Of a stretch of DNA of 64,000 nucleotides, positions 1 to 29,558 are shown piece after piece; position 1 is the first letter of the stretch; every line of letters begins with the position of its first letter. The DNA is taken from assembly GCA_028820405.1 (NCBI GenBank), contig JAPPJI010000021.1, positions 2,770 through 66,769 of the forward strand, given 5' to 3'. A model generated the notes under the pieces. The model was not told where the DNA came from and searched no databases. It saw only the letters and a program-made list of their open reading frames with translations. Both the position numbers and the translations under genes were made by a program. Origin of the DNA: Candidatus Kaiserbacteria bacterium. Its GTDB lineage: Bacteria > Patescibacteriota > Minisyncoccia > Phycocordibacterales > JABAAK01.

Positions 1-22
1 GACGGAACGATACCGGGAAATC

Positions 23-268
23 ATGGAACGATTCGACATACCGGCTGAGGAAGTGGAGGCGTGCCGGGAACAGGACAGCATCGCGGCACACATAGCCATT
101 GCGGCAAAAGATGTTGTCGAGCTCGACATTGAAGAGACACCGCACATTCAATTCATCTCACGATCCGGCGAACTCCTCTTTGACGGTGTCGGTGTTCTCT
201 CAGCAACCGAACTGGAGAGCTTCGTCGCACACATCATGCAAAGCAGGCGACAGGAAACGGAAGACTAA
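23..268 (+). CDS. hypothetical protein (81 aa), convergent with glyQS
   Basis: ORF track only. No recognisable motif. Acidic, non-repetitive composition. Confidence 0.3.
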   Translation: MERFDIPAEEVEACREQDSIAAHIAIAAKDVVELDIEETPHIQFISRSGELLFDGVGVLSATELESFVAHIMQSRRQETED

Positions 269-1611: not shown

Positions 1612-1631
1612 AACTTCATCAGTATACCGCT

Positions 1632-2558: not shown

Positions 2559-2560
2559 GA

Positions 2561-3100
2561 CTACCTCTCGTTACCACCCACCTCTTCCAGACCCTTCCTG
2601 AGCGATTCATGAATCTCTGCGTATTCCGGCAGATCTCCCTTCTTGCTCACACCAAGGTGTGACAGAAGGTCTGCAGTCACATCGAACGCCCGTGCCTTCC
2701 CCACCGACACCTCCTGGATGAGACCGCGAACCAGCAGTTGCCGGGTTGTGTACTGCGTGTTGACTCCACGGAGGAAATCAAGGTCAATCTTGGTAATCGG
2801 TCCTGCATATGCAATGAGTGAGAGTGTCTCTTGAGCTGCGTTTGAAAGCGGTGCGGTTTTCTCTTTCTGATGCACCTGTTGCATAAAGTGATCAAGACGC
2901 GGACTGCTGACGAGTGACAGTGAAGTGCCGTCATCAACGGGCACAACACCGCTTGCGAGCCGTTCCTTTGCGAGGGCGTCCGCAATTGAGTCAATTTCAT
3001 CAACCTTGCATCCGAGAAAAGAAGCCGCACTCTTTTTCGTCAGCGGCGATCCGTGGGTAAAGAGGAGGGCTTCGAGTTTTGCAACGTGGTCCTGGTTCAT
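2561..3100 (-). CDS. scpB: segregation and condensation protein B
   Basis: 179 aa. EALLF...GSPL N-terminal signature of ScpB winged-helix. Adjacent to scpA. Confidence 0.8.
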   Translation of the reverse strand: MNQDHVAKLEALLFTHGSPLTKKSAASFLGCKVDEIDSIADALAKERLASGVVPVDDGTSLSLVSSPRLDHFMQQVHQKEKTAPLSNAAQETLSLIAYAGPITKIDLDFLRGVNTQYTTRQLLVRGLIQEVSVGKARAFDVTADLLSHLGVSKKGDLPEYAEIHESLRKGLEEVGGNER

Positions 3101-3825
3101 ACCGTCTGCTTTGAAATCATAATATCATCAAACTGTCGATCCTGATGTGCCTGCAGGAGGTTCTTTTTGATCAATTCAAGTACGGCGAGGAATGAGACAA
3201 TACTCTCCGCCTTATCCTTCATTGCCATTGAACGAAACGATACCGACACCCGGTCTGACACTGCGGAGAGTACTTTGTCGATCACCTCTTCGATCATGAC
3301 ACGCTTCTCCACGTGTTTTTTCGGTATCTCCTGCAAAAACACCATGTGCCGTACGACTGCCCGTGCGTGGGCGTGGAGCCGCTTTGCACTGCAAGAGAGG
3401 TCCGGAGAAAATGAGACCTCCCGCTCACTCTTGTACACCTGAACGGTATACATCTGCCGTCGCCACGAATGCAATTTCGGCACGACGTGCTCTCGGATGT
3501 ACTCAAACAGTCTCACCCGATCCTCAAGCTGCCGTACATCAACTTCCTCTTCCTCAGTGTATTCGAGCATATCCAGCAGTGATTTCGACTTGATGAGGAT
3601 AAGGATTGAGGCAACGTGCATGAAATGTGCAATTTCCTCTGCCGTCACCGCATCCCCCTGCTTTGTGTGGCGGAGGTAGTCAGCGGTTACCTTTGCAAGT
3701 GACACGGTATTGATCTGCAGTTTCCGCTTGGTGATGAGCTGGTAGAGGAGGTCAATGGGTCCTTCAAACGATTCAACTGACACAACGTACTCTTTCGCAC
3801 TATTCATCATACAGCTTGACGTCAA
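3097..3825 (-). CDS. scpA: segregation and condensation protein A (kleisin)
   Basis: 242 aa. FEGPIDLLYQLI motif near the N-terminus. The scpA-scpB pair overlaps by 4 nt. Confidence 0.8.
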   Translation of the reverse strand: MTSSCMMNSAKEYVVSVESFEGPIDLLYQLITKRKLQINTVSLAKVTADYLRHTKQGDAVTAEEIAHFMHVASILILIKSKSLLDMLEYTEEEEVDVRQLEDRVRLFEYIREHVVPKLHSWRRQMYTVQVYKSEREVSFSPDLSCSAKRLHAHARAVVRHMVFLQEIPKKHVEKRVMIEEVIDKVLSAVSDRVSVSFRSMAMKDKAESIVSFLAVLELIKKNLLQAHQDRQFDDIMISKQTV

Positions 3826-7270: not shown

Positions 7271-7307
7271 AGCCAACGCATTATACAACACCACCACTAA
7301 AGACCTA

Positions 7308-7317
7308 CCCCCCCCCC
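7308..7317. repeat. homopolymeric C10 (G10 on the minus strand) tract, 38-47 nt upstream of the trpS start
   Basis: Seen directly in the sequence (taCCCCCCCCCCtca). Confidence 0.85.
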
Positions 7318-15751: not shown

Positions 15752-17104
15752 TCAATAGCACTCAAGTTTTTTGAGTCCCTGGTGTGCACGAAGCTTTTCC
15801 AGTGCCCGTGCTTCAATTTGACGAACCCGCTCACGCGTAACTCCCATCTTGTTACCGATTTGCTCAAGGGTATACCGAATACCATCGTCTTGCATGCCGT
15901 GTCGCATCTCAATGACCTCTCGCTCACGGGAAGAAAGGTCTTCGAGAATGTCTTGTATCTGCTCCCGCAAGATGTCGTGAGAGACAATTGTCTCCTGCGT
16001 GTCCTGATCAACATCCTCAATGGTATCAGATATCTTTGTGTTACTCTCCTCATCATCGGAACCGCCGAGAGGCTTCTCAAGCTGCACGACCTCCTGCGTA
16101 ATACGACGAATAGTGTAGATTTTTTCAACCTCAACACCCAACTCATCAGCCACCTCCTGCACCGTCGGCACACGACCGAGGTCCTGTTCCAGTTGCACCA
16201 TCGTTTTCTTATATCGCTGTGCGGTTTCAGACATGTGCACCGGGATTCGAATCGTTCTTGACTTATCCGCCAGTCCCCGCACAATTGACTGTTTGATCCA
16301 CCACGTTGCGTAGGTGGAGAACTTGAATCCCCGCTGCGGCTCAAACTTGTCCACCGCTTTATACAGCCCTTCAACTCCCTCTTGCACGAGGTCAAGCAGG
16401 TTGAGATCACGACTTCGTCCCGCATAGTTCTTGGCAATAGAGACAACGAGACGGAGGTTTGCGGTCGCAAGCCGATGTCGTGCTTCAAGACCTTCTTCGA
16501 CAACGGTTCGCTGTGCTTTCGACAGTGCAGTGGTTTTCTTTTTCTTTTCAAGCAGTTTTTGACGTGCCATGATCTTCTCCCCGAGTTCCTGCTCTTCTGC
16601 AGCACTCAACAGGGCGTACTTTCCGATGTCCCGCAGGTACATTTGAATGGAATCGTACGAAGAGAGGTCTGTTTCCGGGAACCGACTGTCGGTTTTTAGT
16701 TTCTCTTCATGCAAAATGCCGTCACGATGCACGAGATCAATGCAGTTGTTATTGAGTATTTTCTCAATGCAGTCCCACACTTCCTTCTCATTGTCACATT
16801 CACTCGGATTAACGTGTTCAAGGATGATGTCTGACGGAACATAGCCACTCCCCTGACACTGTTTAACAAGATCTTTGATTTTTTTGCGAAACTTGGTCGG
16901 AATCACTGCATACAACTCCTTCTCTCTCTGTGCCGCAAGAATCGCTTCATCAATGTTGTCGTCCTTTTCCGCCGTTTTCTTTTTTGCAACACGCACCGCT
17001 TTCTTTACCTTCTTTTTCATTGTTTTCTTTACCGCCTTCTTCGCCCGTGTCGTCTTCTTTTTTACAGACGTTTTTTTCCGTGCAGTTTTCTTCTTGGCTG
17101 GCAT
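15752..17104 (-). CDS. rpoD: RNA polymerase sigma factor RpoD (sigma-70) with a lysine-rich N-terminal tail
   Basis: Region 2 ([35 protein letters not shown]). Regions 3 and 4 ([21 protein letters not shown]). The N-terminal ~48 aa are K/A/T-rich ([17 protein letters not shown]...). Confidence 0.9.
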
Positions 17105-17223: not shown

Positions 17224-18897
17224 TTACACCGCGGGTGCTCGGCTTTTTTTCACCTCCTGTCGCTTTCGAGCTTCTTGAAACAACGTACTGATTGATTTGC
17301 GCAGATCTTCTTGCACCCGAGCAGCCCGATCCTGCTTACTCAGATCAGGCATACCTTCCTCATACTTCACCACTGCCTCACTGCGAGAAACAGACGGCAA
17401 GCCCCACACAGCACATATCGTCCGCAGTGCATCCTTCTGATCTTTCTCAACTGATCCTGTCGTGCCGAGAAATGCTTGGGCACTGGCAACGATGCGCAGG
17501 TGTTTGTCGATCTTGCCGAGTTGATGTTTCGATGCAGCAGGAGTCTGGCAGACCGGAGCCGGCGTGTTCTGTATGTCAGATCGCAGTTGTTCAACCATTT
17601 CAGCCACCGCGGTGTCGGATACCCCGCAAAATGATGCCGCTTCTTTCTGCAGGTGGTCACGGGTCACGGGATTTTGCACCTTTGCAATGAGGGGAGCAAA
17701 CTGCGTCAGCACACCGCGAACCCGGTCAGCGGTATCACCGCTTGCAACCTGTGTATCAATACAATCGGTGACAAATGAAGCGACTGATTTAGCACCCCGA
17801 AACCGTGTCCGAAACTCCTCGGGATCGGCAGCAATCATATCCGCCGGATCTTTCCCGTCCGGCAGCACGACCACCTTGATATTGGTTGCATCAACACCGA
17901 TCGTAATTGCCATTTCAATCACCCGAAGTGTCGCCCGCTTCCCTGCACCGTCACCGTCGAGGGCAAGAATGAGACGGCCGCCCGAGAGTCGCTGCATTGT
18001 TTCGAGATGTTCGGTGGTAACGGCGGTTCCGGATGTTGCAACGGTCATCGGATACCCGGCCTGGTGCATGAGGATAGCATCAACCGGTCCTTCGGTGAGG
18101 ACAACGACACTTTGGCGACGAATTTCCTGTTTTGCACGATGCAATCCGTACAGAAACGTTGATTTGTTGAACAGCGGCGGCTGCATGGTCTCCGGCGAGT
18201 TGATGTACTTCGCCGTTTCTTTTTCACCGTATGCCCGCCCGGAAAATCCGATGATACGATTATTATCATGGAACGGAAACAGAACCCGTCCCCGGAAAAA
18301 GTCAAAGTGACGACCTCTCCTTTGTACGCAAAGACCTGCTTTGACATACTGTTCAAGTTCCTTTTTCGTCCGATTCTCAGTCACAGTCCGCCACGAATCC
18401 GGTGCAAACCCGATGCCCCACGCAGTAATTGACGCTTCACTGATACCGCGCCCGGTGAGGTACGATCGAACGTCATCGGTGAGCAGTTCCTGATAGAGTG
18501 AGGCGGTTGACGCAAGGATGTCATACAGACTATCCGTGTCATTCCGGCGTCTCGTCGGATGATTACCAAGTTCAATGCCTGCCTGCTGCGCAAGGATAGC
18601 GAGAGCTCCCTTGAAATCAACCCCTTCAACTTCCTGCACAAAGGAAAAGATATCTCCCCCTTTTTGTGATGAGAAGCAGTAGTACACGCCGTCTTCCGGA
18701 TCAACGTAAAAAGAGGGGGTTTTTTCGTTCGTAAAAGGAGAGAGCCCCTTCATTCGTTTACCAGAGGGAACGAGATTGGTGTATGGAGAAATGACGTCAA
18801 CGATATCAATGACCTCCTTTATTTGTCGCACCTCGTCACCTCGAGCGGCGTGAGGGCGTTGTGAGGCACACATCAATTGCATCGTATCCCAAAGCAA
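17224..18897 (-). CDS. dnaG: DNA primase
   Basis: N-terminal zinc-ribbon-like region and Toprim domain (LTEGPVDAILMHQAGY...LALDGDGAG). dnaG-rpoD operon order. Confidence 0.85.
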   Translation of the reverse strand: MLWDTMQLMCASQRPHAARGDEVRQIKEVIDIVDVISPYTNLVPSGKRMKGLSPFTNEKTPSFYVDPEDGVYYCFSSQKGGDIFSFVQEVEGVDFKGALAILAQQAGIELGNHPTRRRNDTDSLYDILASTASLYQELLTDDVRSYLTGRGISEASITAWGIGFAPDSWRTVTENRTKKELEQYVKAGLCVQRRGRHFDFFRGRVLFPFHDNNRIIGFSGRAYGEKETAKYINSPETMQPPLFNKSTFLYGLHRAKQEIRRQSVVVLTEGPVDAILMHQAGYPMTVATSGTAVTTEHLETMQRLSGGRLILALDGDGAGKRATLRVIEMAITIGVDATNIKVVVLPDGKDPADMIAADPEEFRTRFRGAKSVASFVTDCIDTQVASGDTADRVRGVLTQFAPLIAKVQNPVTRDHLQKEAASFCGVSDTAVAEMVEQLRSDIQNTPAPVCQTPAASKHQLGKIDKHLRIVASAQAFLGTTGSVEKDQKDALRTICAVWGLPSVSRSEAVVKYEEGMPDLSKQDRAARVQEDLRKSISTLFQEARKRQEVKKSRAPAV

Positions 18898-18962
18898 TCA
18901 AGAGATATATCCTGTCATATGTGCACTTTGTGGATAGTGTGGAAAACCTCAGACCTGCTCCC

Positions 18963-18974
18963 CTCACCCCCTAA
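18963..18974. repeat. left copy of a ~12-bp imperfect direct repeat (CTCACCCCCTAA) flanking the AT-rich island
   Basis: Seen in the sequence. The right copy CTCACCCCCCTA lies at 22641-22652. Each copy overlaps the stop codon of a minus-strand gene (KAP NTPase, rpoC). Confidence 0.3.
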
Positions 18975-20346
18975 CACTTGGTATGCTATCACCATGAAAT
19001 TCCTCAATGTATAAAAGCAATACATCCTTGAATGTTTTTAGAACCTCTCCTTCGTGTATTACATCACCTCCCTTTATGCTTAATTCTCCTTCACGAACGA
19101 CCAACCCTTCAATGTGCCTACCTTTAAGCAAACGTGGCAGAAATGGTGCCTTGTGGGACAGGTTTACTGCTGACACAATGAACTTACAGTGGTCTCTCAA
19201 ACCATCAAACATATCACTCTGACCATATTTATTATCAACTATGGGTTCACAATCGTTAGAAAGAGATTGCTTTATAGCGTCAACTAAAGCTTTCTTTGAT
19301 CCGACAGTCTTTATTAAAAAAGACACAGTTCTTTTCATGGGTCTTCCGTATTCCCTCTCTTCAATCATAGAGAACCCTGAACTATTTCTTTTTTGTGAAT
19401 ACTGTAGCGTCCCCAACCCATTGAGGACCTGTCGCAAGTTTATGATATTTTTTCTGAAGAAGTTTTTCAAAAGGAATAATGACAACCAGACACTTATATA
19501 TTGACCTGTTTTATCTGTCACTTGTTTATTTGGTTGTGGGCCAAAAACGGTACCCATATATTCAGCAATAATACCTTTCGGGTCATACTCAAAAACTTCC
19601 TTGCTGTAAAATTTATCAAGATACCCTTGTGAATCTGTGCCAGCACCATATTTGTGGTGAAAGATTGATCGTAGGTTATTATAGTCCGCTACAAAAATTA
19701 CGTGATCAAAACCAAGCCTTTTAGCAACTGTCTTCTCCTCATCCTCGCCAACAAATAAAGAAAATACATTAAATAGTCTGAAAATATGTTCGGGATCAAG
19801 TCGATCCATATCATCAATAACCAAAACTTTCTTCTTTTCTTTCCCCGCAACTTTGCACAACATTTTTCTGATTTTTTCTTCAGTAATCGTCCCAAAAGAT
19901 TCTTTTATCTCTTCAATCGCAGCAACTATGAAATTCGCAATTGGATTGACCCTCCCCAGCAAAGATGCGGTTTTCCACCCTATCTTTACCAACTTTTTCA
20001 TTTTTGATTTTTCCTTGTGCCCTGACAAGGGTCCTTTTTCTCCACCTTGTTCCATAATAGATATCATCAAGTCTTCCTTCATGGTTTCTATCAGTACCTC
20101 ACTTCCCACTATTTGATAAGCTGTGGGGCGAAGACGTACCCAAAAGTAATATTCCTCATACTGCTTAAAAAACCTCTCGATAAAAAACGTCTTCCCTATA
20201 CCAAATTTGCCAGAAAACAAGATTCTACTGTTTCTCAACATCTCCAAATGATGTTTAAAATGATCAAACAAGGGATCTATCGGTATTATCATACCGCTTC
20301 CAACCAACCCGTCTTGGGATTCTTTAGGATCTTTTGTTACATCCAT
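18964..20346 (-). CDS. KAP-family P-loop NTPase
   Basis: Walker A SGKFGIGKTFF. The Walker B context KVLVIDDMDRLDPEHIF matches the KAP signature (hhhhIDDLDRxxP). AT-rich codon usage unlike the flanking genes. Confidence 0.7.
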   Translation of the reverse strand: MDVTKDPKESQDGLVGSGMIIPIDPLFDHFKHHLEMLRNSRILFSGKFGIGKTFFIERFFKQYEEYYFWVRLRPTAYQIVGSEVLIETMKEDLMISIMEQGGEKGPLSGHKEKSKMKKLVKIGWKTASLLGRVNPIANFIVAAIEEIKESFGTITEEKIRKMLCKVAGKEKKKVLVIDDMDRLDPEHIFRLFNVFSLFVGEDEEKTVAKRLGFDHVIFVADYNNLRSIFHHKYGAGTDSQGYLDKFYSKEVFEYDPKGIIAEYMGTVFGPQPNKQVTDKTGQYISVWLSLFLLKNFFRKNIINLRQVLNGLGTLQYSQKRNSSGFSMIEEREYGRPMKRTVSFLIKTVGSKKALVDAIKQSLSNDCEPIVDNKYGQSDMFDGLRDHCKFIVSAVNLSHKAPFLPRLLKGRHIEGLVVREGELSIKGGDVIHEGEVLKTFKDVLLLYIEEFHGDSIPSVRG

Positions 20347-20461
20347 ACACTAATCACATGATAGTGTAATAACGATATGGAGCACAAGTCAAGACATTGA
20401 CCGACAGTTTCCGATCACTATTCATTTGTAGCCGTGCAAGGAGGTTATACTGAATATAAGC

Positions 20462-21541
20462 ATGGTCACCAAAAGCCTAAACAAGGGATTGCATACTGCA
20501 AAGAGAGAAAAGAAAGATGAGTTCTATACCCAACTTACTGATATTGAAAAAGAGCTGAAACATTACAAAGATCAGTTTCGTAATAAAGTTGTGTATTGTA
20601 ATTGCGATGACCCTTATGAAAGTAATTTTTTTAAATATTTTTCTCTCAGTTTCAACCACTTGGGGTTAAAAAAGCTTATCACCACGAGTTACAAACCATC
20701 ACCAATTACTGGCAAACAATTGCCTTTGGTTGAAATTGAAGGATTAAAGCCAGAAGGCAAAGAACCTTTCAAACTTGAGATCAATGAAGTTTTAGACAAT
20801 AACAAAGATGGTGCTGTTGACTTAACAGATGTTGAGTGGCTATTGAAGAATGATGCGAACACCGCCACACCACTTGATAGTGACGGTGATTTTCGCAGTG
20901 AAGAATGTGTAGAATTTCTCAAAGAAGCAGATGTTGTTGTAACGAACCCTCCTTTTTCACTTTTTCGCGAGTACCTTGCTCAGTTGATGGAGTATGATAA
21001 GAAGTTTTTAATCATTGGAAACATCAACGCCATCACGTACAAAGAGACATTTCCGTTAATCCAGAAAAACAAGGTATGGCTTGGAGTAAGCATCCATAGC
21101 GGAGATCGTGAATTCAGAGTTCCTGACCACTACCCTCTAGAGGCTGCCGGGTATCGTGTTGATGACGAAGGCAACAAATACATTCGCATAAAAGGTGTTC
21201 GATGGTTTACAAATCTTGACACAGAAAAGCGGCACGAAAGTCTTGTTTTGTACAAGAAGTACACCCCCGAGGAGTTTCCAAAATATGACAACTATGATGC
21301 CATAAATGTAAATAAAACCTCTGACATCCCGATGGATTATGCTGATGCAATGGGTGTGCCGATCACTTTTTTGGACAAACACAACCCCGATCAATTTGAG
21401 ATAGTAAATTCAAATAATGTAAGGTTAAGCGAAAAAGTTCCGACCAAAGACTCGGGACTTATCAAAGACAAAGAAAGTGCAATAAACGGCAAGCCGACCT
21501 ATGTTCGAGTTGTCATAAAAAACAAGGAGGTGACAAAATAA
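20462..21541 (+). CDS. N6-adenine DNA methyltransferase, M.EcoRI-like (EcoRI_methylase family)
   Basis: The SDEFYTQ N-terminal motif, VVYCNCDDP, FFKYFSLxFxxLGLKKLI, VVTNPPFSLFREYL (NPPF motif IV), DKKFLIIGNINAITYKE and YPKYDNYDAINVNKTxDIP are all as recalled for M.EcoRI. AT-rich. Confidence 0.8.
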   Translation: MVTKSLNKGLHTAKREKKDEFYTQLTDIEKELKHYKDQFRNKVVYCNCDDPYESNFFKYFSLSFNHLGLKKLITTSYKPSPITGKQLPLVEIEGLKPEGKEPFKLEINEVLDNNKDGAVDLTDVEWLLKNDANTATPLDSDGDFRSEECVEFLKEADVVVTNPPFSLFREYLAQLMEYDKKFLIIGNINAITYKETFPLIQKNKVWLGVSIHSGDREFRVPDHYPLEAAGYRVDDEGNKYIRIKGVRWFTNLDTEKRHESLVLYKKYTPEEFPKYDNYDAINVNKTSDIPMDYADAMGVPITFLDKHNPDQFEIVNSNNVRLSEKVPTKDSGLIKDKESAINGKPTYVRVVIKNKEVTK

Positions 21542-21542
21542 C

Positions 21543-22637
21543 ATGAAAATAGAACTCAAAAGAATTCCTGTTCGTGAGGCAGTTAATGGCTACAAAGATA
21601 ATGCCGAGGAGGGTGTTACGGCATACGGCGGCAAACTTGATGTTCGCCCAAAATACCAACGCGAGTTTGTTTATGACGACAGACAGCGTGATGCGGTAAT
21701 TGAAACAATCAAACAAGATTTTCCGCTTAATGTGATGTACTGGATGACAAAAGATGACGGAATTAATTACGAAATGATTGACGGTCAACAGCGAACTATC
21801 AGTATTGGTCAGTATGTGAGTGGTAATTTTGCACTTGCTAATCGTTTTTTCTATAACCTCACAAAAGAAGAGCAGAATCAGATCCTTGACTACGAGCTCA
21901 TGATTTACTTCTGCGAAGGAACAGACAAAGAACGTTTAGATTGGTTTAAGGTTATCAACATCGCCGGTGAAAAACTGACCGATCAAGAAATACGGAATGC
22001 GGTATATACCGGACCATGGCTTTCTGATGCAAAATTGAAATTCAGTAAAACGAGCTGTGCAGCGTACAAATTAGCAAACGACGGAGGAACACTTTTGAAC
22101 GGTGAATTAAACAGACAGCACTACCTAGAAACCGCCCTCTCTTGGATTAATCATGGAGAAATAGATGGTTACATGGCAAAGCATCAGCACGAACCAAACG
22201 CAAACAACCTATGGAGTTACTTTCAAGATGTGATCATGTGGGTTCGCAAGACATTCCCAAAATATCGAAAAGAAATGAGAGGTGTGAATTGGGGCGGGCT
22301 GCACAACGAATCTAAAGACAAAAAATTGGATGCTGAGAAACTAGAAACTGAGGTTGCTCAATTAATGCAAGATGAAGATGTAACAAGAAGGTCGGGCATT
22401 TACCCTTATGTCCTCACAAGAGATGAGAGACACCTCCAAATACGTGCGTTTACCGACAACATGAAACGAGAAGTATATGAGGAACAAGAGGGAATCTGCA
22501 AAAAATGTGAAGAACAATTCCCATTCGAAGAAATGGAGGCTGACCACATTAAGCCGTGGCACGAAGGCGGCAAAACGACCTCAGAAAATTGTCAGATGTT
22601 GTGCAAGGATTGCAATCGGAGAAAATCCGGAAAATAA
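21543..22637 (+). CDS. DUF262 (ParB/Srx-like, DGQQR motif) + C-terminal HNH nuclease fusion (COG1479/GmrSD-related)
   Basis: YQREFVY and IDGQQRTISIGQY DUF262 signatures. C-terminal CKKCEEQ...ADHIKPWHEGGKTTSENCQMLCKDCNRRK is a canonical zinc-finger HNH. The start codon lies 1 nt after the MTase stop. Confidence 0.8.
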   Translation: MKIELKRIPVREAVNGYKDNAEEGVTAYGGKLDVRPKYQREFVYDDRQRDAVIETIKQDFPLNVMYWMTKDDGINYEMIDGQQRTISIGQYVSGNFALANRFFYNLTKEEQNQILDYELMIYFCEGTDKERLDWFKVINIAGEKLTDQEIRNAVYTGPWLSDAKLKFSKTSCAAYKLANDGGTLLNGELNRQHYLETALSWINHGEIDGYMAKHQHEPNANNLWSYFQDVIMWVRKTFPKYRKEMRGVNWGGLHNESKDKKLDAEKLETEVAQLMQDEDVTRRSGIYPYVLTRDERHLQIRAFTDNMKREVYEEQEGICKKCEEQFPFEEMEADHIKPWHEGGKTTSENCQMLCKDCNRRKSGK

Positions 22638-22640
22638 CAA

Positions 22641-22652
22641 CTCACCCCCCTA
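22641..22652. repeat. right copy of the ~12-bp imperfect direct repeat (CTCACCCCCCTA) flanking the island
   Basis: See the left copy at 18963-18974. Confidence 0.3.
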
Positions 22653-25600
22653 CTCCGCCTCTTTCTCTGCTTCCGCTTCTTCAAGACGGCGTTGCACGTC
22701 TTCACTTATCTTCCGAACAATATCATGCTTCTTGCTCCCTTCAAAACCGCTGCCAACCGGCACCAGGCGACCGATGATCACGTTTTCTTTCACACCGTCA
22801 AGGGTATCCTTTGATCCGCTGATAGCAGCCCTGATGAGAACACTGGTTGTGTTCTGGAACGACGCTGAAGAGAGAAAATTACTCCGGGACACCGACACGT
22901 TGGTGATACCGGTCACAATATGCTCCGCCTCCATGACATGTTTCTTTGCCGTTTTCAGCTCTTCATTTGCTTCAATAAATTCACTCAAATCAATAACCTC
23001 ACCGGCAGTATAGATACCGTCACCGGAATCAGTGATCCGAAGCCGGCTGAACATTTGACGGATGATAATTTCAAAATGTATTGATGCGGTACCCACTCCC
23101 TGCAGTTCGTAGACCTTTGAAACCTCGCTCAAAATGTACTCCTGTGTCGCCTCCTTCCCGCAGTACTGCAGCATCTCCTCAAGGTCCGCTGATCCGTCAG
23201 TGAGAAACTGTCCTTTCGTTACTTCATCGCCGACTGCAACCGAAAGCGTTCGAATCGGAGAAACAGAATAACTCTTGTCCGCAGCTGCAACCCGTTTCGC
23301 ACCGACGTTGAGATAAATTGTTCGACTTCCGTCGCTGTGTTCTTCAATCTGCTCAATCGTCCCGTCAGCGTGAGCGATAACTGCCGGCACTTTCGGTGCC
23401 CGTCGTTCAAAGAGCTCGGTCACCCGCGGCAGTCCTGAGGTAATGTCACCGCCGGCCTGAGCGACACCGCCGGCGTGGAAGGTTCGAAGCGTTAGCTGCG
23501 TACCCGGCTCTCCGACCGACTGTGCGGCAATGGTTCCGACCGCTTCACCGAGATCAACAATCTCACCCGTTGTTCGGTCTTCGCCGTAGCACTTCGCACA
23601 CACGCCGCGTGCATGCAGGCAGGTAATCGGTGATCGCACCCGTATCTTGTCAACAGACTCATGCTTTTCAATAGTTCGTGCCAGGTCGCGATCGATAAAG
23701 TCCCCTTTCTTTGCAACCGCTTTCCCCTTGTCACCAACAACGTCTTCGGAGAGGAATCGTCCCCGAATACGGTCACTGAACGAGTCTCCCGCTCCCGATT
23801 CTGTTTCCCGGTAGAGGTTGAACCCTTTTGTCGTACCGCAGTCGTCTCCGTCAATCCGAATCTCCTGTGCAACGCTGAAGAGCTTTCGTGAGAGGAACCC
23901 CGCATCCGCCGTCTTAAGAGCGGTGTCAGCGGCACCCTTTCTCGCACCGAATGACGCATTGAAGTACTCAATAGACTTCATACCGTCTTTCAGTGACGAA
24001 ATAACCGGCTGCTCAATCGGCTCACCTGATGCCGAGTCAACGACACCGAACATCGCCGTCATGTCACCGAGGTCATCAAAGGAGCCACGGGCACCGGATT
24101 GGATCATTTTTCCGACCGGGGAATCTGTCAGCACCTCATCCCGTGCCCGCTGACTGAGATCGCCTTTCACGTCAAGCCACAGGTCAATGTTCTTTCGCTT
24201 TCTCTCCTGGAGAGAGATGGTCCCCTCGTTATACGCATCCATAACCTCCTGTGATTTCTTGAACCCTTCCTGGATGATCGAATCACGATTGCCCGGGCAA
24301 CGAAGGTCTTCCCATGAAAAGGTCACGCCGGATGCCATTGCATATTTGAAACCGAAGTCCTTGATGAGGTCAAGGTGGTCAACAAGCACCTGGCGACCGA
24401 GGGTATCAAAAATGTCTCTCGTAACCTGTTTGAGCATCTTCTTGTCAATAGCGTCGTTAATGTACGGATACTCCTTCGGCAGTGTCATATTGAACAGCAG
24501 GCGGCCTACCGTTGTCTCAAACATCGTTCCCCGATGCTCACCGTACTTCTCTTTGTCAGAAGCGAGCACTTTTATCTTCGATCGAATCCCGACAATGCCG
24601 TAGTCACTCGCGCTAATCGCTTCATTTATGTTTGCAAAATACTTCCCTTCCCCGTGACCGCCTTCTTCAATCTCTGTTGCCCAGTAACAGCCGAGAACGA
24701 TGTCCTGCTCCGCCGGCGTTATGTTAATCTCACCCGATGCCGGTGAGACAACATTCATAGAAGATGCAAGGATGTTCTTTGCCTCTGCCTGTGCCTCCTC
24801 AGAAAGCGGCAGGTGCACCACAACCGCATCACCGTCGAAGTCTGCGTTGTACGGCGTACACACGAGCGGGTGAAACTCAATGGCAAGTCCTTCGGTGAGG
24901 ATCGGCCGAAACGCCTGAATACTCTGCCGGTGCAGTGTCGGTGCCCGATTCAGGAGCATATACTTTCCGACAATAACTTTTTCTAATATCTCCCACACAA
25001 CGGGCTCACGTGAATCAATGAGCCGCTGTGCGCCCCGAATATTGAAGGCAAGGTCACGATCAAAAATCTCCCCGATAATGAACGGCTTGAATATTTCCAG
25101 TGCCATTGTCTTCGGCAGACCGAACTCATCGAGTTTCAGGTGCTGACCGACGACAATAACTGAACGGCCGACAAAGTCAACGCGTTTTCCGAGCAGGTTC
25201 AGTCGGAAGTACCCGGTCTTTCCGCCGAGGTACTCTGATATCGGCTTCAGCTGCCGTGACTGACCGCGACCGCCGGTTGACGGTGCACCGCGACCCGTGC
25301 TCTTCTCAAAGAGCGCGTCAACTGATTCCTGTAAAAGTCGTTTTTGCGTGTTGACAAAGATTGCCGGTGCCTTTGACTCACGAAACTCTTTCAGACGGTT
25401 GTTTCGAACAATGATGTGGCGATAGAGGTCATTGAGGTCGGAACTTGCGTAGCGACCGCCGTCAAGCTGCACAATCGGTCGTATACCCGGAGGAATAACC
25501 GGAAGCACGGTCACGAACATCCACTCCGGTCTGTTTCCCGACTGGATAAATGATCGGATAATGAGCAGCTGCCGCTGCAGCCGTTCCTGCTGCCCTTTGT

Positions 25601-26339
25601 TCGCTGTCTCAAGGTCACGGAGCACCTCCCGTTCTTTCTTCTCAAGATCAATGTCCTTCAGCAAGTTGTAGATAACCTCTCCGCCTTTCTCCGCTTTGAA
25701 AAGATCGGGAAATGACCGCTTCAGCTGATCATGCCGAACGCCGTCAATAATTATTCCGGGCTGCACCGAGTCAAGGTCATTGACACGGGTCTCGTACAGG
25801 ATATTCAGCATCTCACGCGTCTCCTCCTGACCGGCTTTTTGCAGTTTTTCATCAAACTCTTTCTTAATACTCTTGTGCAACTTTTTCCGATCACCCTCAT
25901 CAACGTCAAGCACGTAGTACGAAGAGTAGTAGACAACGTTTTGCACCTGCTGAGCGGGGAGACCGAGGAGCATTGCAACCCGTGACGGCACCTTACGGAG
26001 ATACCACGGGTGTGCAACCGGCGTCGCAAGCTCAATGTGTCCCATCCGCTCACGCCGCACCAGTGCCCGTGTCACCTCAACGCCACAGTTTGAGCACGTG
26101 ATGCCCTGGTATTGATTCCCCTTATACTTCCCACAGCTACACTGAAAGTCATGCTCGGGACCGAAGATTTTTTCGCAAAAGAGTCCGTCACGCTCTGACC
26201 GTTGGGTACGGTAATTGATGGTTTCTGACTTCGTCACTTCGCCAAATGACCACGACTGGATCTCATCAGGCGACGCGAGCCGCAAGTTGAGGTGATCAAA
26301 GTTTTGTGTCTTTCGTATTGTTTTTTTACTATCCTGCAT
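22650..26339 (-). CDS. rpoC: DNA-directed RNA polymerase subunit beta'
   Basis: 1229 aa. Zinc-binding CxxC N-terminus, NADFDGD catalytic loop, trigger-loop/bridge-helix regions. Confidence 0.97.
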   Translation of the reverse strand: MQDSKKTIRKTQNFDHLNLRLASPDEIQSWSFGEVTKSETINYRTQRSERDGLFCEKIFGPEHDFQCSCGKYKGNQYQGITCSNCGVEVTRALVRRERMGHIELATPVAHPWYLRKVPSRVAMLLGLPAQQVQNVVYYSSYYVLDVDEGDRKKLHKSIKKEFDEKLQKAGQEETREMLNILYETRVNDLDSVQPGIIIDGVRHDQLKRSFPDLFKAEKGGEVIYNLLKDIDLEKKEREVLRDLETANKGQQERLQRQLLIIRSFIQSGNRPEWMFVTVLPVIPPGIRPIVQLDGGRYASSDLNDLYRHIIVRNNRLKEFRESKAPAIFVNTQKRLLQESVDALFEKSTGRGAPSTGGRGQSRQLKPISEYLGGKTGYFRLNLLGKRVDFVGRSVIVVGQHLKLDEFGLPKTMALEIFKPFIIGEIFDRDLAFNIRGAQRLIDSREPVVWEILEKVIVGKYMLLNRAPTLHRQSIQAFRPILTEGLAIEFHPLVCTPYNADFDGDAVVVHLPLSEEAQAEAKNILASSMNVVSPASGEINITPAEQDIVLGCYWATEIEEGGHGEGKYFANINEAISASDYGIVGIRSKIKVLASDKEKYGEHRGTMFETTVGRLLFNMTLPKEYPYINDAIDKKMLKQVTRDIFDTLGRQVLVDHLDLIKDFGFKYAMASGVTFSWEDLRCPGNRDSIIQEGFKKSQEVMDAYNEGTISLQERKRKNIDLWLDVKGDLSQRARDEVLTDSPVGKMIQSGARGSFDDLGDMTAMFGVVDSASGEPIEQPVISSLKDGMKSIEYFNASFGARKGAADTALKTADAGFLSRKLFSVAQEIRIDGDDCGTTKGFNLYRETESGAGDSFSDRIRGRFLSEDVVGDKGKAVAKKGDFIDRDLARTIEKHESVDKIRVRSPITCLHARGVCAKCYGEDRTTGEIVDLGEAVGTIAAQSVGEPGTQLTLRTFHAGGVAQAGGDITSGLPRVTELFERRAPKVPAVIAHADGTIEQIEEHSDGSRTIYLNVGAKRVAAADKSYSVSPIRTLSVAVGDEVTKGQFLTDGSADLEEMLQYCGKEATQEYILSEVSKVYELQGVGTASIHFEIIIRQMFSRLRITDSGDGIYTAGEVIDLSEFIEANEELKTAKKHVMEAEHIVTGITNVSVSRSNFLSSASFQNTTSVLIRAAISGSKDTLDGVKENVIIGRLVPVGSGFEGSKKHDIVRKISEDVQRRLEEAEAEKEAE

Positions 26340-26342
26340 ACG

Positions 26343-29300
26343 CTATGTGTACTGTATTTTATCAACCGGACCCGGCTCCTTCTGATCATCCGCCGTGTCA
26401 AGCGTCACGTTCAAGCCGAGACCGCGAAGGTAGTAGAGGAGAACGTTGAATGCTGCCGGCGTCCCCGTCTGCACGATCGGCTTCTTTCTGATAATGGCGT
26501 TGTACGCTATGTTTCGCCCATGCATGTCGTCTGACTTGATAGTCAGCATCTCACGCAGCGTGTGTGCTGCACCGTGACCGAGCAGGGCCCACACTTCCAT
26601 CTCTCCGAGCCGGCCTCCGCCGAACCGAGACCGCCCGCCCGGCGGCTGTTGTGTGATGAGGGAGTACCGACCGGTTGATCGGGCGTGCACCTTGTCTTGC
26701 ACCATGTGCTCCAGCTTCAGTGTGTACACCCAACCGATCGAAACGTCACCGGCAAACCGATCTCCCGTCTTGCCGTCGTAGAGGTCAACTTGACCGCTCT
26801 CCGGATATCCCGCCTCAACGAGCTCGTTCCGAAGTTCATCCTCGGTGATAGAGGTCATCGGCGGTACAATCGCCTGGTATCCCTGTGCATGTGCGGCAAG
26901 ACCGAGGTGCATCTCAAGCACCTGTCCGATGTTCTTTCGGGACGGCACACCAAGTGATGACAGGATAATGTCAATCGGCTCACCGTCACTGGTAAACGGC
27001 ATGTCTTCAATCGGTGCAATACGGGAAATGACCCCCTTGTTTCCATACCGATTTGCCAGCTTGTCACCCACCTTCACACGACGCAAATCAGCGACAATAA
27101 TGTGCACCTGTTTCAGAACACCCATGTCAATCATGTGATCACTTTCGCGGTCACGAACCTGAACAGACACCACCTTCCCCTGCTCTCCCGGCGGAAGTGT
27201 CTTTGAGGTGTCCCGCATATCCTTCGCCTTGTCACCAAAGATGGAGAGGAGCAGGTGCTCTTCGGCTGACATCTGCATCTCACCGCGCGGGGTGAGCTTT
27301 CCGACAAGGATATCGCCGGGAACGACCTCCGATCCGACGCGAATCACGCCGTCAAGACCCAGGTTGCGGAGTTTGCGTTCGGGAACATTCGGAATATCAG
27401 CTGTCATCACGTCAGGACCGAGCTTGGTCTCCCGAACATCAACAACATGCTCCTTCACCTGTATGGAGGTAAGCACGTCATCGTGTACCAGCCGCTCAGA
27501 GACAATGATCGCATCGTTGAAAGTGCTGTCATACGGCAGAAAGGCGACCCGAAGGTTTTTCCCGACAGCAATACTCCCGTCAACCGTTGATGCTATGTCA
27601 GCAAGCACATCACCTTTCTTCACCTTGTCACCGAGAGAAACAGACGGTCGCTGGTGATTTGCAAAGGTGTACGCGGATCCTGCAAGTTTGAACACCTCAA
27701 GATCGTAGCGCTTGGTATCGTTCCTTGACTTCACTGCGATATGCTTCGCGTCAACAGAGACAACCTCACCGTCTTCCTCGGCAACCATGAGCCGACCGGA
27801 TGACCGTGCAAACGCTTCCTCGTAGCCGGTTGCAATCAACGGCTTCTCCGGCCGAAGACAAGGAATTGCCTGTTGTTGCATGCGGGTACCGGTTGCAGAA
27901 CGATACGGAATGGTGTTACTTGCAAACGGCACAAGTGCGGATGCGATGGAGAGGATCTGACCGGTCGCCGCGTCAACATAGTCAACTTCCTGCGGTGACA
28001 CCCGATCATACTGACCGTCATGCCGAACAAGGACCGTTTCCTGCGTGATGCTTCCCTTTCCGTCAGTCTCCACGTCAGCCCCTGCAATTTTGTACCGCTC
28101 ATCTTCTGCCGCGGTCATGAATGCAATCTCATCAGTCACCTTTCCTCCTTTCACCACGTTGTACGGACACTCAAGCAACCCATACTCATTAATACGGGCA
28201 TACAGAGCAAGGTGCAGTACGAGACCGATGTTTCCCCGTTCCGGCGTGTTGATCGGACAGATGCGCCCGTAATGGGTGCGGTGTACGTCACGGACTGAGA
28301 CATTTGCGTGCTCACGGGTCACACCACCGGCACCAAGTGCGGAAATTGTTCTGAGGTGCTCCAACTGGTCAAGGACGTTCTGCTGTTTGAGTGTCTGCGA
28401 GAGCTGATCAGTATTGAAAAATCCGTGAATAGTCGACTGAAAGGTCCTGAGGTTGATAACGTTTGTCGGCAGCTCAAGCAGTTTCGGATCCTGCGTCAAC
28501 ATCTTATCACGCACATTCTTACGTACCCGAATAAATCCGGTGCGTGCATGCTCGTAGACCAGCTCACCGACAGACCGAATGCGACGAAATCCGAGATGGT
28601 CAATATCATCCCCCTCAGCACCCGGCGTGTTGTTCAGCCGCACGATCTCTTTCACGATGACAACGATGTCCTCAAGGTTGAGCACAAGGTTATCCTTCGT
28701 CTCTTCGGTAATGGGCAGGCTAAACCGTTTATTAAAATTAATACGGCCAATCTCACTGATGTTGTACCACTCCGGTGAGAACCGTGACTGCACCATCTCC
28801 TTCGCCCGCTCAGGACTCACGACACTGCCTGACCGGAGCACCTTGTAAAAGGCGAGCCACACCTCATCCATCGTCGTTGCAGTGTCATCGGCAAAACTCT
28901 GCTCTATTGATTTGTGTGCCGCCGGATCGTCTGCAAAAAGTTTCAGCACATCAGCCTGCGTCTCCGGACCGAACGCACGGATAAAGGTGGTGATCGGCAG
29001 CCGTCGTGAACTCTGGTCAACACGGACTGAGACGAGACCGTTTACATCACTCTCAAACACGAGCCAGATACCCTTCCCTTTCTGCGGCACAACCTGTGCA
29101 CCGAAGGTGTCACGGGTTTTCCGCTTCGTCTCTTTGAAAAATCGGATTCCCTGAGAACGAATCAGCTGTGATACGATGGTTCGCTCAACACCGTTGATGA
29201 TGAACGATCGCTGCGGTGTCATCATAGGGATGTCTCCGAAGAGCACCTCCTCTTCGACAACCCGCTTTGTCACCGTATTATTGAGGTGCAGCACAACACG

Positions 29301-29558
29301 GAGGGGGGCGGTGTAACTGGTAAAGGATTCTTTTGCTTTCTGCGGCGAGAGACGGGGTTCCTCAAGGCGGTGGGAGACAAAGGAAATCTTGTACCGATTG
29401 TTTGAATCCTCAATCGGAAAAAACTCTTCAAACAGGCTCTTCAAACCTGCATCAAGAAACGTGCCGTACGACTCTTCCTGAAATGCAAGAATGTCGTTCA
29501 GCGGAAATGACGGCTCTTTGTATCGCGAAAATGTCTTTTTTGGTCTGGCGGTATCCAT
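26343..29558 (-). CDS. rpoB: DNA-directed RNA polymerase subunit beta
   Basis: 1071 aa. Conserved beta regions (GRHGNKGVISRI-like GNKGVISRIAP, fork and clamp segments). Immediately upstream of rpoC. Confidence 0.97.
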   Translation of the reverse strand: MDTARPKKTFSRYKEPSFPLNDILAFQEESYGTFLDAGLKSLFEEFFPIEDSNNRYKISFVSHRLEEPRLSPQKAKESFTSYTAPLRVVLHLNNTVTKRVVEEEVLFGDIPMMTPQRSFIINGVERTIVSQLIRSQGIRFFKETKRKTRDTFGAQVVPQKGKGIWLVFESDVNGLVSVRVDQSSRRLPITTFIRAFGPETQADVLKLFADDPAAHKSIEQSFADDTATTMDEVWLAFYKVLRSGSVVSPERAKEMVQSRFSPEWYNISEIGRINFNKRFSLPITEETKDNLVLNLEDIVVIVKEIVRLNNTPGAEGDDIDHLGFRRIRSVGELVYEHARTGFIRVRKNVRDKMLTQDPKLLELPTNVINLRTFQSTIHGFFNTDQLSQTLKQQNVLDQLEHLRTISALGAGGVTREHANVSVRDVHRTHYGRICPINTPERGNIGLVLHLALYARINEYGLLECPYNVVKGGKVTDEIAFMTAAEDERYKIAGADVETDGKGSITQETVLVRHDGQYDRVSPQEVDYVDAATGQILSIASALVPFASNTIPYRSATGTRMQQQAIPCLRPEKPLIATGYEEAFARSSGRLMVAEEDGEVVSVDAKHIAVKSRNDTKRYDLEVFKLAGSAYTFANHQRPSVSLGDKVKKGDVLADIASTVDGSIAVGKNLRVAFLPYDSTFNDAIIVSERLVHDDVLTSIQVKEHVVDVRETKLGPDVMTADIPNVPERKLRNLGLDGVIRVGSEVVPGDILVGKLTPRGEMQMSAEEHLLLSIFGDKAKDMRDTSKTLPPGEQGKVVSVQVRDRESDHMIDMGVLKQVHIIVADLRRVKVGDKLANRYGNKGVISRIAPIEDMPFTSDGEPIDIILSSLGVPSRKNIGQVLEMHLGLAAHAQGYQAIVPPMTSITEDELRNELVEAGYPESGQVDLYDGKTGDRFAGDVSIGWVYTLKLEHMVQDKVHARSTGRYSLITQQPPGGRSRFGGGRLGEMEVWALLGHGAAHTLREMLTIKSDDMHGRNIAYNAIIRKKPIVQTGTPAAFNVLLYYLRGLGLNVTLDTADDQKEPGPVDKIQYT

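What the first reader, a model, noticed from the sequence alone, without database searches (positions are those of the whole stretch)
18963..22652. ~12-bp imperfect direct repeats (CTCACCCCCTAA / CTCACCCCCCTA) flank the island and overlap the stop codons of the KAP NTPase and rpoC
Near-identical 12-mers occur at 18963-18974 and 22641-22652, exactly at the two edges of the AT-rich segment. The right copy contains the rpoC stop codon. The left copy contains the KAP NTPase stop. This is the pattern expected for a target-site duplication or att-like core left by site-specific insertion at the 3' end of rpoC. No integrase or transposase is visible, so the insertion would be old or the mobilising gene lost.
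Basis: seen in the sequence. Interest (0 to 1): 0.5.

Follow-up and report, generated by a model that had tools for sequence, protein, structure and literature searches.

The report
Short repeats flanking an inserted defence islet
A 3.7-kb block of foreign defence genes (a restriction-modification pair plus a KAP ATPase) was inserted exactly at the end of the RNA polymerase gene rpoC of an uncultured Kaiserbacteria-like bacterium, and the 9-12-base repeat at its two edges is probably, but not provably, a scar of that insertion; this kind of event is already known.

Summary
CTCACCCCCTAA (18963-18974) and CTCACCCCCCTA (22641-22652) share an exact 9-mer found nowhere else in the 64 kb. They overlap the KAP stop (TGA) and the rpoC stop (TAG) and bracket the low-GC segment. 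An independent assembly carries the same C5 and C6 runs.

Island-free relatives (DnaG 72% and 69% identical) confirm an insertion. There the rpoC stop is followed within 0-2 nt by the motif GTTTTCCACACTATCCACA, which in the window lies next to the left repeat.

The cargo is a KAP P-loop NTPase plus a promiscuous type II R-M pair (EcoRI-family methyltransferase and DUF262/HNH nuclease). It has no integrase, transposase, terminal inverted repeats or nearby tRNA.

A repeat this good at two edges arises by chance in 0.2-4% of random position pairs, depending on how the edges are defined. Those relatives are too distant to settle it.

Best reading (about 0.5): a junction scar of recombinase-free insertion, by target duplication or 11-nt microhomology with the KAP 3' end. 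Chance is about 0.3. A site-specific att is unlikely. This is a new member of a known kind, of low to moderate interest.

The parts
22641..22652 (.). Right copy of the direct repeat, CTCACCCCCCTA (sense of rpoC: TAGGGGGGTGAG). It contains the rpoC stop codon (22650-22652) and starts 3 nt after the REase stop.
18963..18974 (.). Left copy of the direct repeat, CTCACCCCCTAA (sense: TTAGGGGGTGAG). It contains the KAP stop TGA (18964-18966) and the last codons V-R-G.
18964..20346 (-). KAP-family P-loop NTPase, 460 aa, full length relative to homologues. Low-GC cargo gene in the same orientation as rpoC and dnaG.
   Evidence: Pfam PF07693 E=1.4e-13. Best non-self homologues reach at most 41% identity, in variable regions of other CPR genomes.
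20462..21541 (+). EcoRI-family N6-adenine DNA methyltransferase, 359 aa, with the TNPPF motif.
   Evidence: PF13651 E=1.9e-151; PADLOC MTase_II; translation
21543..22637 (+). DUF262 (GmrSD_N, DGQQRT) + HNH nuclease, 364 aa; the restriction partner of the methyltransferase.
   Evidence: PF03235 and PF01844. PADLOC REase_II full-length match, E=2e-130. More than 8000 homologues at 75-79% identity across phyla. Paired with an EcoRI-family MTase on plasmids and in L172-L175.
18948..18962 (-). 15-nt GC-rich stretch (sense: gggagcaggtctgag) between the left repeat and the conserved dnaG-upstream motif. It is absent as such from the relatives. Its composition is host-like, and it aligns with the rpoC 3' tails of the relatives. 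TGA at 18949-18951 is a possible orphaned ancestral stop.
18929..18947 (-). Conserved host motif GTTTTCCACACTATCCACA (two abutting DnaA-box-like 9-mers). It marks the dnaG-side host boundary and follows the rpoC stop directly in island-free relatives.
22650..26339 (-). rpoC (1229 aa), the host gene at whose stop codon the insertion lies.
17224..18873 (-). dnaG (549 aa from the ATG at 18873), the host gene that directly follows rpoC in relatives.

Best explanation
A roughly 3.7-kb low-GC defence islet was inserted at the extreme 3' end of rpoC. The islet carries a KAP P-loop NTPase and a type II restriction-modification pair, and no recombinase of its own. The insertion split the conserved rpoB-rpoC-dnaG-rpoD cluster of a Kaiserbacteria-like (CPR/Patescibacteria) bacterium. 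The 9-nt perfect (11 matched bases with one indel) direct repeat is a junction scar of that one event.

The copy at rpoC (TAG+GGGGGGTGAG) is native host sequence that includes the native TAG stop. The copy at the KAP end has one of two origins:
- (a) It is the KAP gene's own 3' end (GTT AGG GGG TGA). This supplied an 11-nt microhomology for illegitimate integration, either by single crossover of a circularised fragment or by a template switch that re-annealed at the departure point.
- (b) It is a duplicated target.

Shown: the insertion, its approximate edges, the foreign and promiscuous nature of the cargo, the absence of mobility genes and terminal inverted repeats, and the position and reproducibility of the repeats.

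Inferred: that the repeat arose from the insertion, that the pre-insertion host site carried one copy, and the recombination mechanism.
For: Insertion:
- rpoC and dnaG are adjacent in L047 (74-nt spacer), L048, L049/L050 (8 nt) and L051 (overlap), and in other Parcubacteria.
- The window and L046 carry 3.7 kb between them.

Foreign cargo:
- GC is 0.39 against 0.51 for the host; GC3 is 0.36-0.41 against 0.52-0.60.
- The R-M pair occurs in many phyla, on plasmids and in a few phages.
- KAP homologues lie in variable regions elsewhere.

Repeat at the edges:
- The 9-mer is unique to the two edges.
- Random-pair null: 0.24-4%.
- The AT-rich cargo starts immediately inside both copies. The 24 nt at 18948-18971 have 17/24 GC, a value reached by 0% of island 24-mers and 3.2% of host 24-mers.

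Host-native right copy:
- Other copies of the R-M module diverge right after the REase stop and lack the motif.
- TAG is also the rpoC stop in the two nearest relatives.

KAP-native left copy:
- AGG and GGG are typical KAP codons (6/22 Arg, 13/39 Gly), and AGG is nearly absent from host genes.
- KAP ends at the same place as its homologues.
- The G5/G6 difference lets each gene keep its own stop.

No mobility apparatus: Pfam and PADLOC on all three ORFs, no terminal inverted repeats, no tRNA, no Rfam hit.

Precedent: R-M units inserted without mobility genes and flanked by direct repeats that overlap the 3' ends of genes (PMC2853133). Microhomology-based illegitimate integration of taken-up DNA (bioRxiv 10.1101/2023.11.22.568220, listed).
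Against: - Neither island-free relative has the motif at its rpoC stop.
- Reconstructions that keep one copy of the 12-mer align worse to the relatives (score 112) than those that remove both copies (126-134).
- The repeat is short and imperfect, and the looser chance criteria give 4-11%.
- A 3.7-kb circle or fragment with the KAP and REase 3' ends 4 nt apart is hypothetical, and no donor locus was found.
- No closer relative exists in the searched collections (100%, then 72%).
Confidence: 0.5

Rival explanations
1. Chance resemblance. The island inserted by some illegitimate event, and two short G/C-rich words near its edges happen to share 9 nt. One is the KAP gene's native last codons. The other is either the native rpoC 3' flank or the end of the incoming DNA.
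For: - The repeat is only 9 nt exact.
- Random-pair null reaches 4.1% for +-50-nt zones, and 4-11% for the 11-mer with at most 1 edit.
- About 32 direct-repeat families of 10 nt or more exist within the 4-kb region anyway.
- Relatives lack the motif.
- The left copy fits KAP codon usage, so it needs no special origin.
Against: - The 9-mer is unique in 64 kb and sits at both composition change-points.
- With tighter, alignment-derived edges only 0.24% of random pairs do as well.
- One-mismatch variants of the word are not enriched.
Confidence: 0.3
2. Both repeat copies came in with the inserted DNA, as terminal direct repeats of the unit or as a target duplication carried over from a previous site. 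The unit landed a few codons inside the ancestral rpoC tail. The insert's first triplet, TAG, now terminates rpoC. The ancestral tail end (GAG CAG GTC TGA) is stranded next to the dnaG-upstream motif.
For: - Optimal-excision alignment places the best breakpoints at about 22653-22659 and 18961. This keeps GGAGCAGGTCTGAG as host and removes both 12-mers (scores 129-134 against 112 for keeping one copy).
- GAGCAGG matches the L047 rpoC tail, and TGA abuts the conserved motif just as TAG does in L047.
- With these edges both copies lie 0-2 nt from the ends of the insert.
- R-M units with terminal direct repeats are described (PMC2875022, abstract).
Against: - It requires the insert to supply an in-frame stop as its very first codon (about 3/64 by chance), and specifically the same TAG that both nearest relatives use.
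- The motif is not found beside homologous R-M or KAP genes elsewhere.
- The score differences rest on a hypervariable, low-complexity Glu/Ala tail in relatives of roughly 75-79% nucleotide identity in the rpoC 3' end.
Confidence: 0.13
3. A tyrosine or serine recombinase integrated a circular element at a 9-12-nt core overlapping the rpoC stop, and the integrase gene was later lost or acts in trans.
For: Direct repeats at both edges overlap the 3' end of a conserved gene, which is the usual geometry of att sites.
Against: - No integrase or remnant in the island or its neighbourhood.
- The cargo fills the space: gaps are 1-115 nt, with no pseudogene room.
- No tRNA or tmRNA target.
- The core is absent from relatives' rpoC ends.
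- No recurrence of similar elements at this site. Fillers at the rpoC-dnaG junction in other lineages are unrelated genes.
- The core is imperfect (G5 against G6).
Confidence: 0.07

Closest known systems
Restriction-modification gene units inserted without mobility genes and flanked by target duplications (Nobusato et al. 2000, as cited in Furuta, Abe & Kobayashi 2010, NAR 38:2428, PMC2853133)
   Same: - R and M genes travel together in a small insert (under 20 kb) with no integrase or transposase.
- The insert has lower GC than the host.
- Direct repeats sit at both edges and overlap the 3' end of a flanking gene.
- The insertion lies inside an operon-like cluster.
   Different: - The described class has long duplications (over 30 bp by their criterion, typically 45-49 bp), each verified as a single copy in an empty site.
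- Here the repeat is 9-12 nt and imperfect, and the single-copy empty site could not be shown.
- An extra KAP NTPase gene is part of the insert.
Transposon/IS target-site duplication (for example the 9-bp duplications of IS1, IS10 or IS50-type elements; from general knowledge)
   Same: Direct repeat of about 9 bp immediately flanking a foreign segment.
   Different: - No transposase and no terminal inverted repeats.
- The copies are not identical.
- The KAP reading frame runs into the repeat.
Microhomology-mediated illegitimate integration of taken-up DNA (homology-facilitated illegitimate recombination and short-patch double illegitimate recombination, described in Acinetobacter; bioRxiv 10.1101/2023.11.22.568220 for SPDIR)
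   Same: - It is recombinase-independent.
- It relies on annealing at short (3-12 nt) microhomologies.
- It explains why one copy can be donor-native and the other host-native, and why they differ by one base.
   Different: - Those events were shown experimentally for short patches or with one homologous anchor.
- A 3.7-kb insertion leaving both copies has not been shown here or, to my knowledge, in CPR bacteria.
Integrase-mediated genomic islands at the 3' ends of tRNA or conserved genes (att core repeats)
   Same: Geometry: direct repeats overlap a gene's 3' end at both island borders.
   Different: - No integrase.
- The core is not conserved in relatives.
- The target is not a tRNA or tmRNA.
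- There is no recurrence.

Membership tests
Type II restriction-modification system (the cargo) | DNA methyltransferase with catalytic motif | tested here: met
   PF13651 EcoRI_methylase, E=1.9e-151, full length. PADLOC MTase_II. TNPPF motif in the translation.
Type II restriction-modification system (the cargo) | Adjacent nuclease partner | tested here: met
   DUF262/GmrSD_N + HNH. PADLOC REase_II, E=2e-130 over the whole length. The same pairing occurs in L172-L175 and on plasmids. Cleavage activity and specificity were not tested.
R-M insertion with long target duplication (Furuta et al. 2010 criteria, PMC2853133) | Insert contains both R and M homologues, is under 20 kb, and has no other mobile-element genes | tested here: met
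   3.7 kb; M + R + KAP NTPase only
R-M insertion with long target duplication (Furuta et al. 2010 criteria, PMC2853133) | Flanking duplication longer than 30 bp | tested here: not met
   9 nt exact, 11 matched bases with one indel. No longer flanking repeat was found.
R-M insertion with long target duplication (Furuta et al. 2010 criteria, PMC2853133) | Repeat present once at the empty site of a related genome | tested here: not met
   L047 and L048 have no copy. The relatives are distant (DnaG 69-72%), so this is weak evidence.
Transposon / IS with target-site duplication | Transposase gene or remnant | tested here: not met
   No transposase domain in any of the three ORFs; intergenic gaps are at most 115 nt
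Transposon / IS with target-site duplication | Terminal inverted repeats just inside the duplication | tested here: not met
   No inverted-repeat pair has arms at both termini
Transposon / IS with target-site duplication | Identical short direct repeats abutting the element | tested here: inconclusive
   The 9 nt are identical, but the copies differ by one G/C in the run
Integrase-mediated island (att core) | Site-specific recombinase gene in or beside the island | tested here: not met
Integrase-mediated island (att core) | Core sequence present at the unoccupied site (attB) in relatives, with recurrent use of the site | tested here: not met
   The core is absent from L047-L051. Fillers at this junction in other lineages are unrelated.
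Microhomology-mediated illegitimate integration | Short homology between the donor end and the recipient target, with one copy donor-native and one host-native | tested here: inconclusive
   The left copy fits KAP codon usage and the KAP end point. The right copy is not part of the R-M module elsewhere, and it includes the TAG stop shared with relatives. The donor locus and the true empty site are unavailable.
Microhomology-mediated illegitimate integration | Demonstrated recombinase-independent integration | not testable with these tools
   Needs experiment, or read-level evidence of an empty site or circular junction

The most novel reading that the evidence does not exclude
The repeat records a recombinase-free capture of a complete foreign defence module by an 11-nt microhomology between the incoming KAP gene's 3' end and the rpoC stop region. 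The route would be a template switch or a single crossover of a circularised fragment. This would be direct sequence evidence for how ultra-small CPR genomes, which carry few mobile-element genes, acquire defence islets inside essential, tightly packed operons. In this reading the only permissive target is the few bases between the rpoC stop and the dnaG control motif.
Probability: 0.3. Interest if true: 0.45.

Novelty: new member of a known kind. Interest (0 to 1): 0.27.

Why it matters
If the repeat is a true junction scar, it shows a small defence islet (R-M plus KAP NTPase) entering the rpoB-rpoC-dnaG-rpoD cluster of a CPR bacterium with no recombinase. That adds an example with a short repeat (9-12 nt) to the known class of self-contained R-M insertions. 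It also points to microhomology-based acquisition in a lineage thought to depend on DNA uptake.

The island separates dnaG and rpoD from rpoBC, and it places an antisense R-M pair in the path of rpoBC read-through, which may alter expression of essential genes.

If the repeat is chance, the finding reduces to an ordinary horizontally acquired R-M islet.

Tried and rejected
- **Genome-contig scan with DnaG.** The best hit was only 42% identical, so it was useless for the empty site. It did confirm rpoC-dnaG synteny in Parcubacteria.
- **Metagenome scan with the conserved 19-mer GTTYTCCACAYTATCCACA.** BLAST of the window's flanks against all fetched loci found no relative closer than L047 and L048.
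- **Exact look-up of RpoC.** Not on record.
- **Common word or terminator hypothesis.** Rejected: the 9-mer occurs only twice, its variants are not enriched, and no terminator-like hairpin lies at either copy.
- **Known RNA motif.** Rejected.
- **tRNA-type att site.** Rejected.
- **Transposon ends.** No terminal inverted repeats.
- **Two separate insertions (KAP and R-M), each with its own flanking repeat.** Only an 8-mer, GATAGTGT (18933 and 20360), and a 6-mer were found, both at chance level.
- **Motif travelling with the R-M module or KAP homologues elsewhere.** Not found in L172-L177.
- **Shine-Dalgarno-like reading of AGGGGGTGA.** No start codon lies at a usable distance after either copy. 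More distant relatives (L049, L051) do have a G-rich SD right after the rpoC stop for a coupled dnaG, but the nearest ones do not. I kept this only as a weak rationale for a host-native G-rich word.
- **KAP truncation test.** KAP is full length and its tail length is within the range of its homologues, so it does not discriminate between the models.


Full report
**1. What is there**

On the + strand, 18963-18974 reads CTCACCCCCTAA and 22641-22652 reads CTCACCCCCCTA. The two share the exact 9-mer CTCACCCCC. With one C inserted or deleted, 11 bases match.

All housekeeping genes here lie on the - strand:
- rpoB: 26343..29558
- rpoC: 22650..26339, stop TAG = cta at 22650-22652
- dnaG: 17224..18873 (ATG start as called)
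- rpoD: 15752..17104

Three ORFs lie between rpoC and dnaG:
- A DUF262(GmrSD_N)+HNH protein, 21543..22637 (+)
- An EcoRI-family methyltransferase, 20462..21541 (+)
- A KAP-family P-loop NTPase, 18964..20346 (-). Its stop TGA is tca at 18964-18966, and its last codons are GTT AGG GGG TGA.

GC drops from 0.50-0.55 to 0.36-0.42 between the copies.

An independently assembled Logan contig (L046, SRR10996926) is identical over 19.1 kb except for one G in a distant G-run. It has the same G6 and G5 versions of the repeat. The one-base difference between the copies is therefore real.

**2. Is it more than chance?**

The 9-mer occurs only at these two places in 64 kb on both strands. The expectation is 0.44, and 8 of 100 shuffles gave 2 or more. 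One-mismatch variants are not enriched (17 found, 12.7 expected), so it is not a frequent word or a terminator element. No terminator-like hairpin, tRNA or Rfam family lies at either copy.

As a null I took random pairs of positions at the same spacing in the window and looked for an exact direct match of 9 nt or more:

| Edge definition | Zone | Pairs with a match |
|---|---|---|
| TAG\|GTTTTCC | +-30 nt | 1.4% |
| TAG\|GTTTTCC | +-50 nt | 4.1% |
| Alignment to relatives | +-15 nt | 0.24% |
| Alignment to relatives | +-20 nt | 0.5% |

The looser criterion of an 11-mer with at most one edit gives 4-11%. The coincidence is unusual but not extreme.

**3. It is an insertion**

The organism is a CPR/Patescibacteria bacterium. 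NCBI names the identical KAP and DUF262 proteins as 'Candidatus Kaiserbacteria bacterium'.

The DnaG search found the same organism (100%) and then relatives at 72, 69, 57 and 56%. In all of these, rpoC is followed directly by dnaG:
- L047: 74-nt spacer
- L048: about 76 nt
- L049/L050: 8 nt
- L051: overlap

. The same adjacency holds in more distant Parcubacteria MAGs.

In the two nearest relatives the rpoC stop is followed within 0-2 nt by a conserved motif. L047 reads cactccTAG|GTTTTCCACACTATCCACA and L048 reads gcagcgTAGca|GTTCTCCACATTATCCACA.

In the window this motif lies at 18929-18947, 15 nt beyond the left repeat copy. In rpoC sense the window reads:

...gaggcggagTAG GGGGGTGAG ttgttatttt...[cargo]...ccaagtgtTAGGGGGTGAG gggagcaggtctgag GTTTTCCACACTATCCACA

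. Relative to L047, 3702 nt (18948-22649) are extra.

**4. The cargo**

- The methyltransferase matches PF13651 over its full length (E=1.9e-151) and has the TNPPF motif.
- The nuclease matches the PADLOC model 'REase_II' over its full length (E=2e-130) and has the DGQQRT and HNH motifs.
- This pair is very widespread. There are more than 8000 homologues, at 75-79% identity, in Deltaproteobacteria, Bacteroidales and many Patescibacteria. It also occurs on plasmids of many phyla and in a few phages.
- In other loci (L172-L175) the pair has an HTH controller and/or an extra small ORF, and no KAP gene. The sequence diverges immediately after the nuclease stop, with no CTCACCCC motif.
- KAP has no close relative. 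The best is 41% identical, in variable, defence-like regions of other CPR genomes.
- KAP is full length. Its tail after the conserved LYIEExH is within the 1-12-residue range of its homologues.
- No integrase, transposase, terminal inverted repeats or tRNA is present.

**5. Where the repeat copies come from**

*Right copy (at rpoC).*
- It is not part of the R-M module elsewhere.
- It is GC-rich.
- It begins with TAG, the stop codon that both nearest relatives also use.

This points to native host sequence.

*Left copy.* Two lines of evidence pull in different directions.
- The 24 nt at 18948-18971 have 17/24 GC. No 24-mer of the island reaches that value, and 3.2% of host 24-mers do. The low-GC cargo therefore ends just inside this copy.
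- Its codons AGG and GGG are typical of KAP (6/22 Arg, 13/39 Gly), and AGG is almost unused by host genes. KAP needs the G5 version to stop; G6 would read on for about 40 codons.

The simplest account that fits all of this has a host-native TAGGGGGGTGAG and a KAP-native TTAGGGGGTGAG. These provided an 11-nt microhomology for illegitimate integration. The route could be a single crossover of a circularised fragment, or a template switch that returns by re-annealing at the departure point. Either route leaves one copy on each side.

A classical duplication of a 9-12-nt target, followed by a one-base slip, is also possible. Both versions require the pre-insertion host to have carried one copy, followed by gggagcaggtctgag.

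**6. Evidence against, and the alternative reconstruction**

Neither relative has the motif.

I scanned all pairs of excision end points and scored each reconstructed junction against L047 and L048:

| Reconstruction | Score |
|---|---|
| Best: keep GGAGCAGGTCTGAG (18961-18948) as host, cut rpoC at 22653-22659, remove both 12-mers | 129-134 |
| TAG\|GTTTTCC | 126 |
| Keep one copy of the 12-mer | 112 |

GAGCAGG matches the L047 rpoC tail (GAGCAGGAACACTCCTAG). TGA at 18949-18951 abuts the conserved motif just as TAG does in L047. An alternative follows from this. The unit may have carried both repeat copies at its very ends and landed a few codons inside the ancestral rpoC tail, supplying a new TAG.

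That alternative has two weaknesses. First, it needs an in-frame stop as the first triplet of the insert, and specifically the same codon the relatives use. Second, it rests on a low-complexity, length-variable Glu/Ala tail in relatives that are only about 75-79% identical in DNA in the rpoC 3' end. I give it about 0.13.

**7. Comparison with known systems**

The closest described class is the R-M gene unit inserted without mobility genes and flanked by target duplications that can overlap the 3' end of a neighbouring gene (PMC2853133). This case meets the cargo criteria. It fails the operational repeat-length criterion (over 30 bp), and the single-copy empty site could not be shown.

The transposon and integrase/att models each fail defining features: no transposase, no terminal inverted repeats, no integrase, no attB in relatives, and no recurrence. 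Fillers found at the rpoC-dnaG junction in other lineages are unrelated genes.

Microhomology-based illegitimate integration of taken-up DNA is an established process in other bacteria (for example SPDIR, bioRxiv 10.1101/2023.11.22.568220). It has not been shown for a 3.7-kb block or in CPR bacteria.

**8. Verdict**

Probabilities:
- Junction scar of recombinase-free insertion with a host-native copy: about 0.5
- Chance: about 0.3
- Element-borne terminal repeats: about 0.13
- att with a lost integrase: about 0.07

This is a new member of a known kind, of low to moderate interest. The question can be settled by k-mer searches for the predicted empty-site and circular-junction sequences, or by a closer island-free genome.

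Noticed in passing
window 18929-18947 (- strand); L047 2618-2636; L048 3352-3370: GTTTTCCACACTATCCACA consists of two abutting DnaA-box-like 9-mers (TTTTCCACA and CTATCCACA; consensus TTATCCACA). It is conserved immediately after the rpoC stop, about 55 nt upstream of the dnaG start, in the window and its two nearest relatives. It may be a regulatory or DnaA-binding site for dnaG-rpoD. The 20-mer is unique in the window.
   Followed up: partly
window 18933-18951 and 19966-19984: A 19-nt inverted repeat (17/19 complementary) links the conserved host dnaG-upstream motif and a coding stretch inside the KAP gene (K-I-G-W-K-T-A). It may be coincidence; its significance is untested.
   Followed up: no
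L001 2703-9557 (Candidatus Adlerbacteria MAG JARIGK010000001.1): A single 2284-aa ORF contains both RpoB-like and RpoC-like sequence. This is an apparent rpoB::rpoC gene fusion, directly upstream of the rpoC-dnaG junction.
   Followed up: no
L004 2031-4731; L043 9275-9988; L001 9558-9988: The rpoC-dnaG junction carries other, unrelated fillers in other CPR lineages. L004 has about 2.7 kb including a PyrD-like 389-aa ORF, L043 about 0.7 kb, and L001 about 0.45 kb with a small membrane-like ORF. The junction tolerates insertions repeatedly.
   Followed up: partly
window 22638-22649: rpoC (-) and the HNH nuclease gene (+) converge with only 12 nt between their stop codons and no terminator-like hairpin. 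rpoBC read-through would run antisense through the R-M genes and then sense through KAP into dnaG.
   Followed up: no
window about 7298-7308 (L046 about 19025-19035): The only difference between the window and the independent Logan contig over 19.1 kb is a G-run of 10 against 9. This could be a homopolymer length polymorphism or an assembly error.
   Followed up: no
window 21543-22637 and loci L172-L175: The DUF262/HNH nuclease family is unusually conserved for an R-M nuclease: 75-79% amino-acid identity across phyla and more than 8000 hits. Its module varies by an HTH controller and an inserted small ORF (T5orf172/MUG113-like in L172 and L173) between M and R.
   Followed up: partly
L048 2-3351: rpoC of the 69% relative is split into two overlapping ORFs (2..3052 and 3031..3351). 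This is probably a frameshift error in a long-read assembly rather than biology.
   Followed up: no
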